Shown: in pieces, positions 17,398 through 64,000 of the stretch
Layout: each line of letters opens with the position of its first letter
Numbering within the stretch: position 1 is the stretch's first letter
Assembly (NCBI GenBank): GCA_965197475.1
Contig: CBDANF010000003.1
Span: 1,312,001 to 1,376,000, forward strand
Source: Candidatus Poribacteria bacterium
GTDB taxonomy: Bacteria; Poribacteria; WGA-4E; WGA-3G
Direction: 5' to 3'
DNA: 64,000 nucleotides
Made by a program: the position numbers and the translations under genes
The notes under the pieces: model-generated
The model's database searches: none
What the model was told of the DNA's origin: nothing
Seen by the model: the letters and a program-made list of their open reading frames with translations, nothing else

Positions 17398-17782
17398 TGT
17401 ATAGGCTCCTTGATGTTAACGTCAAAAAACGAGGTTGGGTTTCTTACTGTCCCTTTTTAAAGGATACTATATTTGGGATGAATTTGCAAGAATATTTTGC
17501 TATGGGAATTATTAATCTTGCATCTCTTTTTTGGATATGCTATACTGTTGTCAAAAAAGTTAACAGTTGCTCATGGGTGGCATGGTTTAAAGACTTGAGC
17601 AAATGTTACTCCCGTGGTCAGATTAAAAATTGAGTTGATTTCTTAATTGTGCATTTGTTATAATGTTCCAAACTTGACAAATAGTAATTTAATTTGGTGG
17701 TAATTAACCTTCGGAATAAGTAGTTTCGGACATTAGATTTCTCATTTTTTTCTCCACTTTTTTCAAAATTCCCACCTTTAAC

Positions 17783-17966
17783 TTGACATTCCCCTTCTTA
17801 AAATTGTAGAATTCTTAACAGACCAAACTATAACACCATTGGACTATGGGTATCCCATATCTAATGTAAGTTAGGTGTTATGGTTTGGTCACCAGGGATG
17901 CCCACTTCTTTTGTGGAGAAGTTGGGATTTACTGGATGACCAAACCTACAATTTAAGGGGTACAAT
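17783..17966 (+). promoter_or_regulatory. Sigma70-like promoter and structured switch-like leader of the IS passenger genes
   Basis: TTGACA-18-TAGAAT; 17821-17837 pairs with 17874-17890, or alternatively 17882-17895 pairs with 17932-17946. Confidence 0.65.
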
Positions 17967-18254
17967 ATGATAATTTTCAGTGTCTTTGTTATCATCGTAG
18001 TATTTTTTATGGTAACACATCTTCGAGCTGACAAAGAAAAGATGGATCAATCAAGCGATGAACATACTAAAAAGATGTGGAAAATGTATGTTAATGCTAT
18101 TGAAAACGAACATTTCCTGTATCCACTCACTTCAGATTTAAGAAATTGGGTTCTTTCCAATCAAGAATTCGGGTGGACTACCCTCGACACTTCAATGCCA
18201 AAAGAAATCCGACATCAGTTTGGCGTGTTTATAATCGAACATGCCAACAAATAG
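17967..18254 (+). CDS. IS passenger: hypothetical protein with N-terminal TM helix
   Basis: AAGGGG RBS; hydrophobic N-terminus; 95 aa. Confidence 0.6.
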   Translation: MIIFSVFVIIVVFFMVTHLRADKEKMDQSSDEHTKKMWKMYVNAIENEHFLYPLTSDLRNWVLSNQEFGWTTLDTSMPKEIRHQFGVFIIEHANK

Positions 18255-18265
18255 GGAAGAAAACC

Positions 18266-18550
18266 ATGAAATCCACCAGACAAGCAGCTGAGTTAATCCG
18301 ACTTAGCCTCAATGAATTCAGAACAGGTAATTTTGTTGATGCCCTCGCTTATGTAGAAACAGCATTAGAAATTAACCCCAAAGATGTCCGTGCCTTACAG
18401 ATTCGACCACTTTGTAAATGCTGTTTGATCGTTGAAAGCGGTGCAATTCCACCAAATCTCCAAACTGATATACAAAATATCATCTCAGATTTAAAAGTAT
18501 CAATAGAAACTTTAGACGATATGATTAGGGTTGCTCGGACGAACACTTAA
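18266..18550 (+). CDS. IS passenger: small TPR-like protein
   Basis: GNFVDALAYVETALEINPKD resembles a TPR helix pair; ATG 11 nt after the previous stop. Confidence 0.6.
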   Translation: MKSTRQAAELIRLSLNEFRTGNFVDALAYVETALEINPKDVRALQIRPLCKCCLIVESGAIPPNLQTDIQNIISDLKVSIETLDDMIRVARTNT

Positions 18551-18692
18551 TTTTTTCGGATATATTCCCTAAATCTTCCATTCCATATTGCTTTAATTGG
18601 TTCAATAGGTCTACCATCTGTTTTTTTTTACAGGTAGGCGGGCCTTTTTGTTTCCACATTCTTGGCAGACTTGTTTTTCTTTAGTCATTTTT

Positions 18693-19574
18693 TCACCTCA
18701 TACTTTCATTAACAAATTTCCAGAATATGCTATCCACATTCCGGTAGTTATATTTATAGCAAGCCTCAGCCACATATAGCGGGATATACCCAGTAGAGTA
18801 GTGGTGATGCTGTCCATACCATGCGCGTTTCAACAACGCCCAAAAACCTTCAATAGTGTTCGTGTGGGTATCCCCATCAGCGAACTGTTCTTTGTGATTG
18901 ATAACCCGATGTTTTATCTGCTTTCCGATCTCATTGTAAGCAGCATATTCATCGGTTATCAGTTCGGATTCATCTATTTTGACAGCATCCCGAATAAACG
19001 CCAGGATACCCCTTCCCGTTAAATCATCAGCAAGTTTAGCTACTACCTTACCTCCACGCTCAACTGCGCCAAGAATAGCGGATTTTGATGTTCCCCTTCC
19101 TCTTTTGGCGGGTTCATCGTCCTCGCGCTTGTTCTTTTTCCGAGGTTTGCCTCCTATATAAGTCTCATCTGCCTCAATAATACCCTTCAGCAGAGTTTGA
19201 CCTTTAGTAGCCATTTCAGCACGAATGCGTTGCATCATAAACCAAGCCGTCTTCTGATTCAGGTCTAAATCACGACTCAACTGATAACTGGACAAGCTCT
19301 TCTTTGCGTTTCCCATTAGTGAAATAGCCAGAAACCACTTTTGAAGTGCGATCTTAGCCCCGTGAAACACTGTGCCTTGAGTAACCTTGAAGGTTGCCTT
19401 ACAACCATTACAATTCCAACGACCAATCCGACCAGTTGCCGTCTCATTACGCCTGAAAACATCGGTAATCCCACAATGTGAGCAATGAGGCTTACCTTTC
19501 CATCGTATCTTCTCAAGATACTCAATACAGGATGACTGGTCTGGGAATCTCTCCATAACCTTGATTAAATCCAT
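18693..19574 (-). CDS. IS1595-family (ISXO2-like) transposase
   Basis: Zn ribbon CSHC/CNGC, EADETYIGG, LITDE..AY, NH, HTNTIEGFWALLKR; AGGAG RBS before ATG 19574. Confidence 0.95.
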   Translation of the reverse strand: MDLIKVMERFPDQSSCIEYLEKIRWKGKPHCSHCGITDVFRRNETATGRIGRWNCNGCKATFKVTQGTVFHGAKIALQKWFLAISLMGNAKKSLSSYQLSRDLDLNQKTAWFMMQRIRAEMATKGQTLLKGIIEADETYIGGKPRKKNKREDDEPAKRGRGTSKSAILGAVERGGKVVAKLADDLTGRGILAFIRDAVKIDESELITDEYAAYNEIGKQIKHRVINHKEQFADGDTHTNTIEGFWALLKRAWYGQHHHYSTGYIPLYVAEACYKYNYRNVDSIFWKFVNESMR

Positions 19575-19601
19575 CAGAATACTCCTATATGTCAAAAGGA
19601 G

Positions 19602-19718
19602 TTGCTTTATTCTGAAAGATTGTGCTATACTATCTTAATATGATATAGATAAGATAGAACTTAGAAAAAGCAACTCCGCTTTTTCGGTTCAATAGGGGGT
19701 GTCCGCCCCCTATTTTCT
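19602..19718 (+). ncRNA. Putative antisense RNA to the transposase leader (promoter plus ~80-nt transcript)
   Basis: TTGCTT-18-TATACT with extended -10 TG; terminator-like hairpin AATAGGGGG..CCCCCTATT followed by T-run. Confidence 0.55.
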
Positions 19719-19725
19719 TGCCTAT

Positions 19726-19754
19726 ATTATACCATTTCTTACCATTTAAATCAA
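19726..19754 (-). promoter_or_regulatory. Transposase promoter
   Basis: TTGATT-17-TATAAT with TG extension on the minus strand; conserved in copy 2. Confidence 0.7.
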
Positions 19755-19829
19755 GGAAAAAGTCAATAACCATCTACATTTACAGCACTTTTCTACTTTT
19801 TCTTGATTAACTTCCTTTTTAATGCTTTA

Positions 19830-19881
19830 ATTGTTAAGCGATTGTTAAGCGATTGTTAATCGATTGTTAAGCGATTGTTAG
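19830..19881. repeat. 11-bp tandem repeat (ATTGTTAAGCG)x4 plus a partial unit
   Basis: Read directly; five units in copy 2. Confidence 0.95.
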
Positions 19882-19919
19882 ACCACCTCTTTTAACTCAA
19901 ATAAAAGGAGGTGATAGTT

Positions 19920-20042
19920 ATGTATAACCAAAATAATCAGTTCCTGCTCAACGAAATAAAAGCAGGATAAAACGTGATAGAATCGCGTTTAATTATGATG
20001 ATTATTGAAAATTATCTACTTAAGATTAAACACAATCTATAA
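19920..20042 (+). pseudogene. 40-codon ORF inside the IS end with a premature TAA at 19968 (intact in copy 2)
   Basis: Strong AGGAGGTG SD; copy 2 has CAA at this codon. Confidence 0.5.
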
Positions 20043-20160
20043 CCAATTCCCATCAAAAGAAATGGTCTAACAATTATCTTCCTCGTCAGGAAGCCCTTAC
20101 GATGTCAGTCTATGTCTGATTTTATGCTGTTTTTCTTATGTCCAAAACTACTTATTCCGT

Positions 20161-21510
20161 AATATATTACCGCGAGTTCCAGAGTTGCAAGCCGTGTTTG
20201 AGGATCCTGCGGTTCGCGGTGCATTTACCAGTATTTTAGGGCAGAATTACGTGATGCATTCACATCGGCATCCGCATCAGAATGCACCACACAGCGGGGG
20301 GCAAGGGTTTCATAAGGATAGCTATTGGGGACATGAGAAAGTTCGGCATCACCGTCCTCGTTGGGCGATGGCGTTCTACTATCCGCAGGATACACCTGTT
20401 GAAATCGGTCCCTCAGCAATCTTATCGGGAACGCAATACTACAGTAACAGGATTACTGAGAACAACGATGGTGAAGTTGCACTTAGTGGTGAAGCGGGGA
20501 CGGTCTCACTTATCCACTTTGACCTGTGGCATCGTGCGATGGCAAACCAGACCGATAAGACTCGCTACATGATGAAGTTTCAGTTTATCCGCATGGATGA
20601 ACCACAAGAACCGGAATGGAACGTGGCTGATCCAACGTGGAACGTAGATGGACTTGACGAGAATGGCAACTCTGCTGCCAAAAGACATCAAACGACATGG
20701 CGACACGTTTGGAATTGGATGACTGGCGGATCGAACGGACATGCATCCAAGCAAGCCAACGGCAACTTGACAACGCACATTGAAGCGTTGAGCGATGCGG
20801 ATCCATCTGTACGTTCTGACGCTGTTGATGAATTAGGGTTGTTAGGTGAATCCGCTGCTGATGTTATTCCGATGTTGAGCCAAGCTTTACATGACGACTA
20901 TGAACCCGTCAGGCTCAATACTGCCTATGCATTGGGTGCAATTGGCGAACCTGCTGTGCCGACATTGATTGAAAAACTATCTGATGAAAATGGTACGGCG
21001 CGACGAATGGCTTCGTATGGATTAGCAGCAGTCGGCGCGCCTGCTGTGCCGGCACTTTGTGAGGTATTAGCACATGAAAATGATGAGGTGCGACATCAAG
21101 CGACTTACGCTTTAGCACAGATAGGACGCGCGGCGGAGCCTGCAGTTGATGCTTTGATAGATCGTTCTAAAGATAGCAAAGTTGAAGTCCGCCGATATAT
21201 TCCAGAAGTCCTCGGAGGAATTGGGGCATCTGCAGCACCAGCGGTGCCGGTGTTAACCGATATGTTGGCAAACGATGAGGATGTCCAAGTACGTTTTGAG
21301 TCAGCATTAGCGTTAGGGCAGATTGGTCCTGCTTCAAGCGATGCAATTCCTATATTGAAGGACTCGCTCTCGGATAGTAATCGCTACGTTAGAGACAACT
21401 CTATCCATGCGCTGAAACGGATCGGCACTCCTGAAGCGGAATCAGCACTCTTCGATTATTTGTTGATGGCGCGATGGTGTGCCATTACCAACAGCGAAAG
21501 CACATTCTAA
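20161..21510 (+). pseudogene. PhyH plus HEAT-repeat protein, 5'-truncated by IS1595
   Basis: Frame open to the IS junction (NILPRVPELQAVF); FHKD and WHR iron ligands; HEAT repeats (ALG.IG..AVP.L). Confidence 0.8.
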
Positions 21511-43761: not shown

Positions 43762-45031
43762 TGAAGTGCCAACGCTAATTAGGGCCAAAAAATCAGTAAA
43801 GTTAAGACAAGTTTTGTTGTTCAAATTCAACAGGTGTCAAATACCCTAACGCCGAGTGAGGGCGTTTGTGATGATACACCTGTGTGATAAAATGCCCGAT
43901 GCGTGTGCTGGCATCGGTTATATCCTCATAATCATTGAGATGAACTTCTTCCTCTTTGAGAGTTCGGATGGGTCTCCTTTCAGCATACCCGTTCTCCCAC
44001 GGACACCCTCTACGCGCTAAGGAAATCTCAATGCCGTGCTGTTTCAGCGTTGAGATATAGGCACTTGAAAGGGACTGAACCCCTTGATCGCTATGGTGGC
44101 TCTCTGGGATACTTTGGCGTCCTGCCTGTTCCAAGGCTTTCAGGGTCAGAGATGTGTTCAAATGTTGGCTGACCTGCCACCCTCTTATCATGCGAGTGAA
44201 TACATCCATGAGCACCGAAACATAGACGAAGCGTCTGTGGAGACGGACATACGTTATATCGCCAACTCAGACCTGATCACATCGACAGATGTCAAGTGCT
44301 TCAAGGCGATTCACCCAAGGCTGCGCACCTTCAAGCGATCTCGTAGTTTGACTGGAAACCCCTTTGACCGAAACCGACAAGTTCTGGGATTTCATCAATC
44401 GGGCGACGCGCCGATACCCAATGGTGTATCCCATACCCAACAGCATCTGCGTGATACGCCTATACCCATATTTCGGATAACGCGCACATAACTTCTCTAT
44501 TTCCTCACCAAGCACCTCTTCAGAAGGATCCCTTTTCGGGTGATAATAGAGAAGGCTCCGGTTGAAACCCAGCGTCTCACAAATCTGGTGAACTGAATAA
44601 TCGTCCCGCAACGCCTCAACGAGGTTTCGCTTATCAGACGAGGTTTCGCTTATCAGACGAGGTAACTCAACCAAGTGGAGGCTTTTTTTGGGATGTCTAA
44701 TGCCACGGTTAACCGTCCAACGAGTTGTTCAAGGTGGGCGATCCGCTCGGCCGCCTCGCTGGATCGCTTATCCGTGGAGGCAAACAGAGATGCCGCATTT
44801 TCAACGAGTTGCTGCTTCCACTTTGAGAGCTGGTCTTCGCTGAGGTTATGGCGGCGACACACTTCTGCTTGGGAACTTTCACCGCTGAAGGCCTCAAGAA
44901 CAACCTCCGCTTTAAACTCGGGGGTGAAGCTTCTTCGTTTTCGTTTCGCCATCGGATACTCCTTATAATTAGATTGTTATTATACCAAAATCTTGGTTTA
45001 GACAGTGGCCCTAATTTCCGATGGCAGTACA
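43762..45031 (-). mobile_element. IS3-family element; orfA 44952-44653, orfB disrupted
   Basis: TG...CA ends with TG(N3)TGCCA..AATTAGGGCC TIRs; A7G slippery site near 44685; HHSDQG, WENGYAE, RPHSALGY; 19-bp tandem duplication at 44619-44656 and an in-frame stop. Confidence 0.9.
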
Positions 45032-63287: not shown

Positions 63288-63522
63288 CAGGGCTATTTAG
63301 TTTTCGGTTTTTCTTATGATATTTATCACAAATGTTAATATTTTATGATAAGCAGAAGTAGCGTGATTTTTTACGCTACTTCTGCTATACTTCACCTTAA
63401 AAATCTTCCCTTTTTTGAGGTGAACCATGACAAGAAAATCTTCTTGCCACTCGATGGATATGTTAGCAGAAGTTCAAGACCTACGCAACAATAAAGGCAA
63501 ACGACACAGGGTTATTTAGTTT
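63288..63522 (+). mobile_element. ISAs1-family relic (left end and first ~27 codons)
   Basis: CAGGGC end; MTRK...LAEVQDLRNNKGKRH resembles the ISAs1 transposase N-terminus; a second CAGGGTTATTTAG end at 63507. Confidence 0.6.
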
Positions 63523-64000
63523 CGGAATAAGTAGTTTTGGACATAAGAAAAACAGCATAAAATCAGACATAGACTGACATCGTAAGGGCTTCCTGACGAG
63601 GAAGATAATTGTTAGACCATTTCTTTTGATGGGAATTGGTTATAGATTGTGTTTAATCTTAAGTAGATAATTTTCAATAATCATCATAATTAAACGCGAT
63701 TCTATCACGTTTTGTCCTGCTTTTATTTCGTTGAGCAGGAACTGATTATTTTGGTTATACATAACTATCACCTCCTTTTATTTGAGTTAAAAGAGGTGGT
63801 CTAACAATCGCTTAACAATCGCTTAACAATCGCTTAACAATCGCTTAACAATCGCTTAACAATTAAAGCATTAAAAAGGAAGTTAATCAAGAAAAAGTAG
63901 AAAAGTGCTGTAAATGTAGATGGTTATTGACTTTTTCCTTGATTTAAATGGTAAGAAATGGTATAATATAGGCAAGAAAATAGGGGGCGGACACCCCCTA
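63523..64000 (+). mobile_element. IS1595-family element, copy 2 (partial, inverted relative to copy 1)
   Basis: Near-identical reverse complement of about 19693-20159. Confidence 0.95.
63640..63762 (-). CDS. 40-aa small protein in the IS1595 end (MYNQNNQFLLNEIKAGQNVIESRLIMMIIENYLLKIKHNL)
   Basis: AGGAGGTG SD well spaced from the ATG; open 41 codons. Confidence 0.5.
   Translation of the reverse strand: MYNQNNQFLLNEIKAGQNVIESRLIMMIIENYLLKIKHNL

What the first reader, a model, noticed from the sequence alone, without database searches (positions are those of the whole stretch)
19572..19756. Antisense-controlled translational switch in the IS1595 transposase leader
Seen: a minus-strand promoter (TTGATT-17-TATAAT, 19754-19726) gives a ~145-nt leader, and a plus-strand promoter (TTGCTT-18-TATACT, 19602-19631) ending at a terminator-like hairpin (19691-19716) would give a ~80-nt RNA complementary to its 5' half. 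In the mRNA, CAGAAT..ACTCCT can pair with AGGAGT-ATTCTG and bury the SD. Alternatively an upstream GGAGTTGCTTT (19677-19667) pairs perfectly over 11 bp with AAAGCAACTCC (19608-19598) and frees the SD. Inference: the antisense RNA captures the upstream arm and flips the leader to the SD-closed state without itself overlapping the SD. This is the logic of pSK41 rep translational attenuation rather than IS10 RNA-OUT; I know of no description of it in IS1595 elements.
Basis: partly seen in the sequence, partly recalled or inferred. Interest (0 to 1): 0.8.

Follow-up and report, generated by a model that had tools for sequence, protein, structure and literature searches.

The report
Two-state leader with antisense promoter
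The untranslated leader of a jumping-gene (IS1595-type) transposase in a sponge-symbiont bacterium can fold in two mutually exclusive ways that hide or expose its ribosome-binding site. A conserved promoter and terminator on the opposite strand should make a small antisense RNA that locks it shut, but no RNA data show that this RNA is made.

Summary
On this one sequence the evidence is weak: the plus-strand promoter matches only 8 of 12 consensus positions, and the window copy already prefers the closed fold. The comparative evidence is strong.

The element is a 2448-bp IS1595-family insertion sequence (17712-20159). It has 6 copies in this Candidatus Poribacteria genome, plus about 34 copies of related subfamilies. 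A covariance model of the leader hits 78 of 151 sampled genomes of the phylum.

In 60 of 60 distinct full-length leaders the antisense strand keeps TTGnnn-17/18-TAnnnT, with TGn in 55. The antisense -10 positions 1, 2 and 6 never vary. The terminator hairpin covaries.

Both alternative leader helices are supported. The A:A' helix (SD open) is paired in 94.7% of cells against 39-55% in slid controls, with G-U pairs. The anti-SD/SD plus AUG hairpin (closed) is paired in 86.8% against 47-55%.

Masking the part the antisense RNA would cover raises the computed cost of opening the ribosome site in 41 of 41 leaders (8.7 to 16.0 kcal/mol). Nascent transcripts fold open in 39 of 41.

No transcript evidence could be obtained. 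I read it as a pSK41-RNAI-like translational attenuator, a new variant in a transposon.

The parts
17712..20159 (-). Whole IS1595-family insertion sequence (2448 bp). It has 6 copies in the genome, one of them interrupted by another IS.
   Evidence: Copy boundaries come from comparing the 6 copies. Terminal inverted repeats are CGGAATAAGTAGTTTTGGACAT and ATGTCCGAAACTACTTATTCCG.
20138..20159 (-). Left terminal inverted repeat (IRL).
   Evidence: It is homologous to the IRL CGCAATRAGTAGTTTTGGACTTG of the related subfamilies.
17712..17733 (-). Right terminal inverted repeat (IRR).
18693..19574 (-). Transposase gene (293 aa).
   Evidence: ORF. Pfam DDE_Tnp_IS1595 at E 7e-35 and Zn_ribbon_IS1595 at E 1.6e-10.
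19726..19754 (-). Sense promoter, TTGATT-17-(TGG)TATAAT.
   Evidence: 10 of 12, TG. TTGnnn-17/18-TAnAAT is kept in 40 of 41 aligned leaders; the one exception, L043, is misaligned.
19575..19719 (-). Predicted 145-nt transposase leader. The start site is inferred, not measured.
   Evidence: The position follows from the -10. Fold z-score is -4.78. Covariance model R1 scores this copy at 130.7 bits.
19691..19716 (.). Hairpin H1. On the + strand it is an intrinsic-terminator-like hairpin followed by a U-rich tail (to about 19720). On the - strand it is a hairpin at the 5' end of the mRNA.
   Evidence: Covariation is 94.3% of cells paired against 62-76% slid, with 21 cells changed on both sides and 0 of 500 shuffles as high.
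19664..19685 (-). Local hairpin around arm A (GAAAAAGC / GCUUUUUC). Its complement is stem-loop 1 of the predicted antisense RNA.
   Evidence: It is helix 2, with 83.8% paired and 3 pairs changed on both sides.
19667..19677 (-). Arm A (GGAGUUGCUUU), the 5' partner of the 'open' helix.
   Evidence: (I12).
19598..19608 (-). Arm A' (AAAGCAACUCC). It pairs with A (open state) or, through ACUCCU at 19602-19597, with the SD (closed state). Its complement carries the antisense -35.
19568..19621 (-). 'Closed' hairpin. AAUCU-UCAGAAU...ACUCCU pairs with AGGAGU-AUUCUGA-GGAUU. It buries the SD (19586-19581), the AUG (19574-19572) and the next few bases of the coding sequence (GGAUU reaches into codon 3).
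   Evidence: Helices 4 and 5 are 87.7% and 83.1% paired, with 8 of 9 and 4 of 6 pairs changed on both sides.
19602..19631 (+). Antisense promoter, TTGCTT-18-(TGC)TATACT.
   Evidence: Sequence. TTGnnn-17/18-TAnnnT is kept in 41 of 41 and in 60 of 60 distinct full-length leaders, with TGn in 55 of 60. The consensus scan did not list it.
19638..19720 (+). Predicted antisense RNA of about 83 nt: a 5' tail, stem-loop 1 and the terminator stem-loop. It is not shown to be expressed.
   Evidence: Fold is -29.3 kcal/mol with z -4.51. Exactly two hairpins are predicted in 41 of 41 homologues.

Best explanation
The feature is the regulatory leader of an IS1595-family transposase in a Candidatus Poribacteria genome.

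The roughly 145-nt mRNA leader is a two-state RNA. While it is being made, arm A pairs with arm A', and in relatives the helix extends to about 16 bp. This leaves the Shine-Dalgarno sequence and the AUG free. Alternatively A' and the bases before it pair with the SD, the AUG and codons 2-3, which shuts translation.

A convergent promoter has its -35 inside A' and its -10 in the loop of the middle hairpin. It is inferred to drive an antisense RNA of about 80 nt that ends at the H1 terminator. This RNA is complementary to the first 60-95 nt of the mRNA (82 nt in the window copy), arm A included, but not to the SD. By pairing with A it releases A' to close the ribosome site. The result would be translational attenuation and copy-number-dependent self-repression.

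Shown here by computation:
- the anatomy;
- the conservation of both promoters and of the terminator;
- the covariation of both alternative helices;
- the direction of the energy shift.

Inferred:
- that the antisense RNA is made;
- that it binds;
- that translation responds.
For: 1. Family and mobility. Pfam gives IS1595 DDE and zinc-ribbon domains. The element has terminal repeats and 6 copies. Three copies of one related subfamily in the same genome show 8-bp target duplications.

2. Antisense promoter. TTGnnn-17/18-TAnnnT occurs in 41 of 41 aligned leaders and in 60 of 60 distinct full-length leaders, with TGn in 55 of 60. Per position the -10 reads T60, A60, C39/T19, A58, A57, T60. The invariant alignment columns are exactly hexamer positions 1, 2 and 6 read on the antisense strand. 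The two hairpin pairs that hold them never covary, while the pairs below them do (helix 3).

3. Terminator H1. 94.3% of cells are paired, 21 cells changed on both sides, and 0 of 500 shuffles reach this. RNAalifold also finds it de novo. The predicted antisense RNA has exactly two hairpins in 41 of 41 leaders and a U-rich end, with a median of 6 U in the last 11 nt.

4. Open helix A:A'. It is a perfect 11 bp in the window. On the MAFFT alignment 95.1% of cells are paired against 39-56% slid. On 62 distinct rows the figure is 94.7% against 39-55%, with 20 cells changed on both sides, 0 of 500 shuffles as high, and G-U/U-G cells at two pairs. RNAalifold predicts it de novo.

5. Closed hairpin. 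It forms in every distinct 3' part folded alone. 86.8% of cells are paired against 47-55% slid, and 24 of 34 pairs changed on both sides (this alignment was fitted to the structure). On the unfitted MAFFT alignment the figure is 77.4% against 35-53%.

6. Energetics.
- The two states are near-isoenergetic. Forcing A:A' costs 0.0 kcal/mol in 22 of 41 leaders and 0.1-9.8 in the other 19.
- Transcripts cut just after A' fold with A:A' in 39 of 41 leaders. Full leaders do so in 19 of 41.
- Masking the antisense target raises the opening energy of -14..+5 in 41 of 41 leaders, from a mean of 8.7 to 16.0 kcal/mol.
- Shuffling the 5' part has the same effect: 14.7 +/- 3.5 (n=328) against 8.7 +/- 2.4 for the native sequence.

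7. Breadth. Model R1 hits 78 of 151 sampled genomes of the phylum, in 4 of 22 genera.
Against: - No RNA evidence exists for either transcript. The four metatranscriptome runs found are contigs, unstranded, and do not cover 19602-19692.
- The antisense -35 matches TTGACA at only 3 of 6 positions, and the consensus scan did not list this promoter.
- Promoter rules are borrowed from sigma-70 of model bacteria. Poribacterial promoters have not been characterised.
- In the window copy, and in 18 others, the closed state is already favoured without any antisense RNA (window: 4.1 kcal/mol; MFE closed). Repression may therefore not need the antisense RNA.
- The 60 leaders are related. The model's effective sequence number is 4.66, so the shuffle controls overstate independence.
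- Three A:A' pairs never vary and say nothing either way.
- CAAC lies in the antisense loop in only 26 of 41 predicted folds, so a kissing-loop start is weakly supported.
Confidence: 0.55

Rival explanations
1. The leader is a self-contained cis-acting translational attenuator. The open state forms co-transcriptionally and decays to the closed hairpin, giving a short translation window. No antisense RNA takes part. The plus-strand promoter-like and terminator-like motifs are by-products, or they only stop stray antisense transcription from leaving the IS.
For: - The closed state is the minimum-energy fold without any partner in the window copy and in several relatives.
- Truncated transcripts fold open in 39 of 41 leaders, but full ones do so in only 19 of 41.
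- The antisense promoter is a weak consensus match.
- No transcript was seen (which has no cover at the site).
Against: - Antisense -10 positions 1, 2 and 6, the TGn and the 17/18-nt spacing are invariant in 60 of 60, 55 of 60 and 60 of 60 leaders. The neighbouring stem pairs covary. RNA structure alone would allow covariation there.
- The A-rich run 5' of H1, which forms the U-tail on the other strand, has no obvious role in the sense RNA.
Confidence: 0.15
2. The antisense RNA exists but acts mainly by another route. Candidates are cleavage of the duplex and decay of the mRNA, or transcriptional interference between the two convergent promoters about 100 bp apart. The A:A'/SD alternation would be an independent layer of control.
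For: - The geometry fits. The promoters face each other, and the antisense terminator tail overlaps the sense start and -10.
- About 80 nt of perfect complementarity would make a long duplex.
- In IS200, antisense pairing, Hfq and mRNA structure act independently (abstract of PMC4513863).
Against: - The antisense target includes arm A in all 41 leaders.
- Removing arm A from the ensemble shifts the ribosome site towards closed in 41 of 41 leaders.
- So a structural effect follows from binding whether or not decay also occurs. The two routes are not exclusive.
Confidence: 0.2
3. The inverted repeat GAGTTGC...GCAACTC is a DNA-level protein-binding site, for example for the transposase or a host factor, rather than an RNA helix.
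For: - The core GTTG/CAAC never varies.
- Arm A is itself part of a small palindrome.
Against: - G-U and U-G cells occur at two pairs of the helix (3 cells at one pair and 8 at the other). These would be mismatches in a DNA palindrome.
- The helix extends through variable A-run/U-run flanks with bulges.
- The invariance of the core is explained by the antisense -35 TTG lying in A'.
- The two arms are about 58 bp apart.
Confidence: 0.05

Closest known systems
pSK41 RNAI control of rep (staphylococcal RepA_N plasmids)
   Same: In pSK41 an antisense RNA of about 83 nt is counter-transcribed from the leader, complementary to a region about 100 nt upstream of the translation start. Its binding is proposed to induce a stem-loop that sequesters the ribosome-binding site without terminating transcription. 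RNAI has two stem-loops and an unstructured 5' tail (review PMC5703833, passages read).

Here the predicted RNA is about 83 nt. It has a 5' tail and two stem-loops, ends more than 50 nt from the SD, and should favour an SD-sequestering hairpin.
   Different: - The gene is a transposase in an insertion sequence, not a plasmid replication gene.
- The host is a Poribacteria symbiont.
- No sequence relation was found (no Rfam match).
- The -35 of the antisense promoter lies inside the switching arm.
- The closed hairpin also covers the AUG.
- Nothing here is experimentally shown.
IS10 RNA-IN/RNA-OUT
   Same: An IS-encoded antisense RNA from a convergent promoter near the transposase start gives copy-number-dependent inhibition of transposase translation. 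This is recalled, not read here.
   Different: RNA-OUT pairs across the ribosome-binding site and start codon of RNA-IN (recalled). Here the predicted antisense RNA starts at about 19638 and runs away from the SD at 19586-19581, so there is no overlap.
IS200 art200 plus 5'UTR stem-loop
   Same: The transposase is repressed both by a cis-encoded antisense sRNA opposite the 5'UTR and by mRNA secondary structure in the 5'UTR (abstract of PMC4513863).
   Different: In IS200 the two act independently, and art200 pairing blocks translation initiation directly. Here the antisense RNA is predicted to work through the structure, by removing a competing arm.
ISPpu9 Asr9/Ssr9 (IS110 family, Pseudomonas putida)
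   Same: [quoted passage not shown]
   Different: - The sign is opposite. Asr9 helps unfold the structure and raises translation.
- A second sRNA counteracts Asr9.
- The transposase family is different.
pT181 / pIP501 antisense-driven transcription attenuation
   Same: Antisense binding to the leader decides between alternative leader structures (review PMC5703833).
   Different: There the induced stem-loop is a terminator. Here the closed hairpin is followed by UAAUCAAG, not a U-run, and the scan lists no minus-strand terminator at 19568-19621.

Membership tests
IS1595 family insertion sequence | DDE transposase of the ISXO2/IS1595 type with an N-terminal zinc ribbon | tested here: met
   PF12762 at E 7e-35 (120.7 bits, cutoff 27) and PF12760 at E 1.6e-10.
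IS1595 family insertion sequence | Terminal inverted repeats bounding a multi-copy unit | tested here: met
   22-nt inverted repeats at 20159-20138 and 17712-17733. The six copies share the same ends.
IS1595 family insertion sequence | 8-bp AT-rich target-site duplication (family trait recalled, not read here) | tested here: inconclusive
   Three copies of one related subfamily (group E) in the same genome show exact 8-bp duplications: TTTTTTTA, TAAGTTTT and AAATGTAA. Other subfamilies were not checked. The window copy's flanks differ (ATATATTA against AAGGTTAA). One sister copy matches at 7 of 8, and flanks appear exchanged between copies.
IS1595 family insertion sequence | Length about 0.7-1.1 kb with one ORF (simple members; recalled) | tested here: not met
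   The element is 2448 bp. It carries about 420 bp between the IRL and the promoter and about 980 bp after the transposase gene. One related subfamily here is about 1.13 kb. Longer members with passenger DNA are described for this family (recalled).
pSK41-RNAI-type antisense translational attenuation (works-like comparison, not homology) | Counter-transcript promoter inside the leader | tested here: inconclusive
   The motif is conserved in 60 of 60 leaders, but no transcript data exist.
pSK41-RNAI-type antisense translational attenuation (works-like comparison, not homology) | The antisense RNA does not overlap the ribosome-binding site | tested here: met
   The predicted RNA spans 19638-19720 and the SD lies at 19586-19581. 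In 41 leaders the RNA covers 59-95 nt of leaders 124-151 nt long.
pSK41-RNAI-type antisense translational attenuation (works-like comparison, not homology) | Antisense binding favours a stem-loop that sequesters the SD | tested here: met
   By computation only. The opening energy rises in 41 of 41 leaders, from a mean of 8.7 to 16.0 kcal/mol. The shuffle control gives 14.7.
pSK41-RNAI-type antisense translational attenuation (works-like comparison, not homology) | Repression of translation shown in vivo or in vitro | not testable with these tools
   This needs reporter fusions, toeprinting or probing.
IS10 RNA-OUT-type control | The antisense RNA pairs across the SD and start codon | tested here: not met
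   There is no overlap. The gap between the antisense start and the SD is more than 50 nt.
Any curated Rfam family | Match to a covariance model | tested here: not met
   0 matches at E up to 1 over 17600-20300, both strands.

The most novel reading that the evidence does not exclude
One 11-25-nt segment (A' and its flank) would carry three overlapping codes: the -35 of an antisense promoter in DNA, the partner of an upstream arm that keeps the ribosome site open, and the anti-SD that closes it.

The antisense RNA made from it would be a diffusible copy-number sensor. It would switch all copies of the IS to the closed state, and possibly copies of sister subfamilies that share the GAGUUGC/GCAACUC core.

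If true, this would be the first regulatory mechanism described for the IS1595 family and the first antisense-induced translational attenuator in a transposon. It is conserved across at least four genera of sponge-symbiont Poribacteria whose genomes are crowded with these elements.
Probability: 0.5. Interest if true: 0.7.

Novelty: new variant of a known kind. Interest (0 to 1): 0.6.

Why it matters
- I found no published regulation mechanism for IS1595-family elements in the searched library.
- This genome holds about 40 copies of this IS clade and many other IS copies. The leader occurs in about half of the sampled genomes of the phylum. A copy-number-sensing brake would help explain how such IS-rich symbiont genomes stay viable.
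- The module is a compact natural riboregulator. An antisense RNA acts at a distance from the ribosome site through a three-way competition of short arms.
- It is directly testable with reporter fusions in a laboratory host.
- It extends the plasmid-type 'induced SD sequestration' logic to transposons.

Tried and rejected
1. RNA evidence. One search for sequencing runs found four sponge metatranscriptome runs held as contigs. Laid on 17600-20300, they cover parts of the IS at low depth but nothing over 19602-19692. Contigs carry no strand, no ends and possibly DNA. This is no evidence for or against either transcript. One contig of a sister subfamily runs from the transposase 5' end past the sense -35, which cannot be interpreted.

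2. Rfam gave no match.

3. The consensus scan did not list the antisense promoter. I kept the promoter only because of its conservation.

4. My first count of the H1 hairpin used the window's columns and was off by one register for most rows (60.3% paired; slide +1 gave 85.8%). I redid it on A2 with the majority register.

5. Crude counting of paired SD bases in single MFE structures was uninformative, because the added coding bases paired spuriously (last columns). I replaced it with ensemble opening energies.

6. Transcription attenuation of the pT181 type is rejected. There is no U-run after the closed hairpin and no minus-strand terminator listed there.

7. A leader peptide is rejected. 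The 47-aa ORF 19773-19630 starts upstream of the predicted start site, and the leader has no AUG before 19574.

8. A sense-strand promoter using the TTGCTT inside arm A was checked by eye only in the window copy and subfamily A, and dropped. In neither is a -10-like hexamer at 16-18 nt.

10. Selection of rows.
- Of the 80 loci (212 relatives found, best 80 kept), 73 had distinct upstream regions.
- I chose 35 by eye as carrying the long leader.
- I left out 12 short-leader copies in one genome (L046-L054, L056-L058), where the IRL carries the -35.
- I left out the distant relatives L075, L078, L082-L088, L090-L101, L103-L105 and L109.
- I left out the truncated or rearranged L044, L070, L086 and L106, and exact duplicates.
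- In-genome subfamily E was not available as a locus; L081 is nearly identical to it.
- For one search, 2 of the 62 distinct rows of A3 were dropped as truncated (window:63955-64000 and L070).
- Supplementary files of papers were not consulted and do not bear on the claims.
Full report
**What is there.** The window is G000:C3:1312001-1376000. The minus-strand ORF 19574-18693 encodes a 293-aa protein with the Pfam domains DDE_Tnp_IS1595 (E 7e-35) and Zn_ribbon_IS1595 (E 1.6e-10). Comparing genome copies shows a 2448-bp unit, 17712-20159. It is bounded by the 22-nt inverted repeats CGGAATAAGTAGTTTTGGACAT and ATGTCCGAAACTACTTATTCCG and is present six times, once interrupted. About 34 further copies belong to five or six sister subfamilies at 66-71% identity. 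Their left repeat lies about 70 bp upstream of the promoter. Three copies of subfamily E show exact 8-bp target duplications. Related loci in public genomes are almost all titled Candidatus Poribacteria, and the RNA runs that hold the sequence are labelled sponge metagenome. The host is therefore a sponge-symbiont poribacterium.

**The observation.** On the single sequence the case is weak. Promoter-like matches in this AT-rich DNA are no commoner than in shuffles (12 against 8.2 +/- 2.7). The plus-strand promoter matches only 8 of 12 positions and the scan did not list it.

**Comparative material.** Three alignments were used.
- A1 and A2 are MAFFT alignments of 41 distinct leaders: the window copy, five in-genome subfamily representatives and 35 loci from other poribacterial genomes. 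Row selection is described under Tried and rejected.
- A covariance model R1 was built on A2 with the closed structure. It found 81 instances in 97 held sources, 62 of them distinct, and these make up alignment A3.
- R1 also matched 78 of 151 sampled genomes of the phylum, own genome included, in 4 of 22 genera: g1 35/38, g2 37/56, g3 1/2, g9 4/20.

More distant IS1595 relatives, in Chloroflexota, Binatia, Trueperaceae, proteobacteria and one poribacterial subfamily, have a short leader. Their -35 (TTGACA, or TTGACT/TTGACG in a few) is part of the left repeat and none of these elements is present. The structured leader is thus an addition specific to this clade.

**Promoters and terminator.** The sense promoter TTGnnn-17/18-TAnAAT is kept in 40 of 41 leaders; the exception, L043, is misaligned. 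On the antisense strand, TTGnnn-17/18-TAnnnT is kept in 41 of 41 and in 60 of 60 distinct full-length rows of A3. An extended -10 TGn is present in 55 of 60. The -10 positions read T60, A60, C39/T19, A58, A57, T60, and the spacer is 18 nt in 48 rows and 17 nt in 12.

The three invariant columns in this region are exactly hexamer positions 1, 2 and 6 when read on the antisense strand. The two base pairs of the middle hairpin that contain them never covary (UA 59 of 61, AU 61 of 61), whereas the pairs below them do (helix 3). That is the pattern of a sequence-specific -10, not of a mere stem.

Hairpin H1 covaries. 94.3% of cells are paired against 62-76% slid. One pair reads AU 19 / GC 11 / CG 2. 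21 cells changed on both sides, and 0 of 500 shuffles reach this. On the plus strand H1 is followed by a U-rich run (median 6 U in the last 11 nt, range 4-9). The predicted antisense RNA folds into exactly two hairpins in 41 of 41 leaders. In the window copy it is an 83-nt RNA with a 19-nt 5' tail (-29.3 kcal/mol, z -4.51).

**Two alternative leader structures.**

The open helix A:A' (window: GGAGUUGCUUU with AAAGCAACUCC, 11 bp).
- On the MAFFT alignment 95.1% of cells are paired against 39-56% slid. 4 pairs and 11 cells changed on both sides, and 0 of 500 shuffles reach this.
- On A3, which was not fitted to this helix, 94.7% are paired against 39-55%. 20 cells changed on both sides, including AU to GC in 7 rows and CG to UA. 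G-U/U-G cells occur at two pairs.
- RNAalifold predicts this helix de novo.
- In relatives it extends through the U-run/A-run flanks to about 16 bp with bulges.
- The core GUUG/CAAC never varies. This is explained by CAA being the complement of the antisense -35 TTG.

The closed hairpin.
- Folded alone, the 3' part of every distinct leader forms a hairpin. In it (A)ACUCCU pairs with the SD. In most leaders CCGUCAGA-like bases also pair with UCUGAUGG, that is the AUG and the following codons.
- Examples of compensation: ACUUCU/AGGAAGU in L067, ACGCCU/AGGCGU in L134, and a 5' arm of AUUU against AUCC tracking ATGAAT against ATGGAT.
- Counts on A3: 86.8% against 47-55% slid, 24 of 34 pairs changed on both sides, 115 cells (the alignment was fitted to this structure and leans towards it).
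- Counts on the unfitted A2: 77.4% against 35-53%, 26 cells.

The two structures share A' and its 5' flank, so they exclude each other.

**Energetics and direction of the switch.**
- The window leader's minimum-energy fold is closed. The best fold containing A:A' is 4.1 kcal/mol higher.
- Across the 41 leaders, forcing A:A' costs 0.0 in 22 and 0.1-9.8 kcal/mol in 19. The states are close.
- Transcripts ending just after A', before the SD exists, fold with A:A' in 39 of 41 leaders. Complete leaders do so in 19 of 41. The open state should therefore form first during transcription.
- The free energy needed to make -14..+5 single-stranded is on average 8.7 kcal/mol in the free leader. It is 16.0 when the bases complementary to the predicted antisense RNA are made unavailable, and it rises in 41 of 41 leaders.
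- Dinucleotide-shuffling that 5' part gives 14.7 +/- 3.5 (n=328) against 8.7 +/- 2.4 for the native sequence. So the native 5' part specifically holds the ribosome site open.

Since the antisense RNA is complementary to that part and not to the SD, its binding can only push towards closed.

**Mechanism proposed, and what is inferred.** The mRNA starts near 19719. A:A' forms while the RNA is being made and permits ribosome loading. The leader then relaxes to the closed hairpin, or is driven there at once when the antisense RNA pairs with arm A. The antisense RNA is made from every copy, so repression would scale with copy number. The following are inferred and not shown: both start sites, termination at H1, RNA-RNA binding (a loop-loop start is only weakly supported, 26 of 41), and any effect on translation. 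Duplex-triggered decay or promoter interference may add to the effect or replace it (rival 2).

**Comparison with known systems.** The closest working analogue is pSK41 RNAI (review PMC5703833, passages read). It differs from three transposon cases.
- IS10 RNA-OUT overlaps the RBS (recalled).
- In IS200, antisense pairing and UTR structure act independently (abstract).
- In ISPpu9, the antisense RNA opens the structure (abstract).

It is not a pT181-type terminator switch. No Rfam family matches.

Searches of the held library found no description of antisense or leader control in this family.
- IS1595 + antisense RNA + transposase: 3 papers, generic, one checked by passages.
- Poribacteria + transposase + antisense: 0 papers.
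- IS1595 + small RNA: 16 papers, 10 listed, none on this by title or abstract start.
- Transposase + antisense RNA + ribosome binding site + alternative structure: 3 papers, none on this.

Subscription-only papers are not in that library.

**Verdict.** The interpretation passes every computational test available but lacks transcript evidence. My probabilities are:
- about 0.85 that the two-state leader is real;
- about 0.7 that the antisense promoter is functional;
- 0.55 for the full antisense-driven switch.

It is a new variant of a known kind. Interest is 0.6.

Noticed in passing
window 19830-19880 (and the same place in the five sister copies): An 11-bp tandem repeat (unit ATTGTTAAGCG on the + strand) lies about 75-125 bp upstream of the sense -35, inside the IS. 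The repeat block is 44, 55, 66, 77 or 99 bp in five copies. This accounts for most of their length differences. Its role is unknown; it could be a regulator binding array or a plain VNTR.
   Followed up: partly
window 17712-18692 and 19760-20137: The IS carries about 980 bp after the transposase gene and about 420 bp before its promoter that simple IS1595 members lack. A 134-aa ORF on the opposite strand (18146-18550) has only sub-threshold TPR hits (22.6 bits against a cutoff of 27). Sister subfamilies A-D also carry 0.5-1.1 kb of extra DNA after the transposase gene.
   Followed up: partly
window 18615-18688, minus strand: A 25-codon ORF overlaps the transposase stop (TGAGGTGAAAAAATG) and runs into an A9 homopolymer at about 18622-18630. 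One of the six IS copies has A8. A frame change there would join it to the 44-aa ORF 18659-18525. This could be a slippery or phase-variable site, or nothing.
   Followed up: partly
G000:C3:3352277-3355745 (sixth copy of the IS): In this copy the stretch corresponding to window 19658-19886, which includes arm A, H1 and the sense promoter, is replaced by a 1245-bp unrelated repeat. That repeat has at least 20 near-identical copies in the genome. A 77.5%-identical relative lies in the window at about 43762-45031.
   Followed up: partly
window 63510-64000: A second copy of the same IS starts here in the opposite orientation and runs off the window end.
   Followed up: no
window 20160-21510: The IS left end abuts a 441-aa ORF (20185-21510, TTG start) rich in HEAT-like repeats. 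Its true N-terminus may have been cut off by the insertion. The flanks of several IS copies look exchanged between copies, which suggests IS-mediated rearrangements.
   Followed up: no
L018 (G000:C3:2472118-2476148): Two sister-subfamily copies lie about 1.3 kb apart, both with intact leaders.
   Followed up: no
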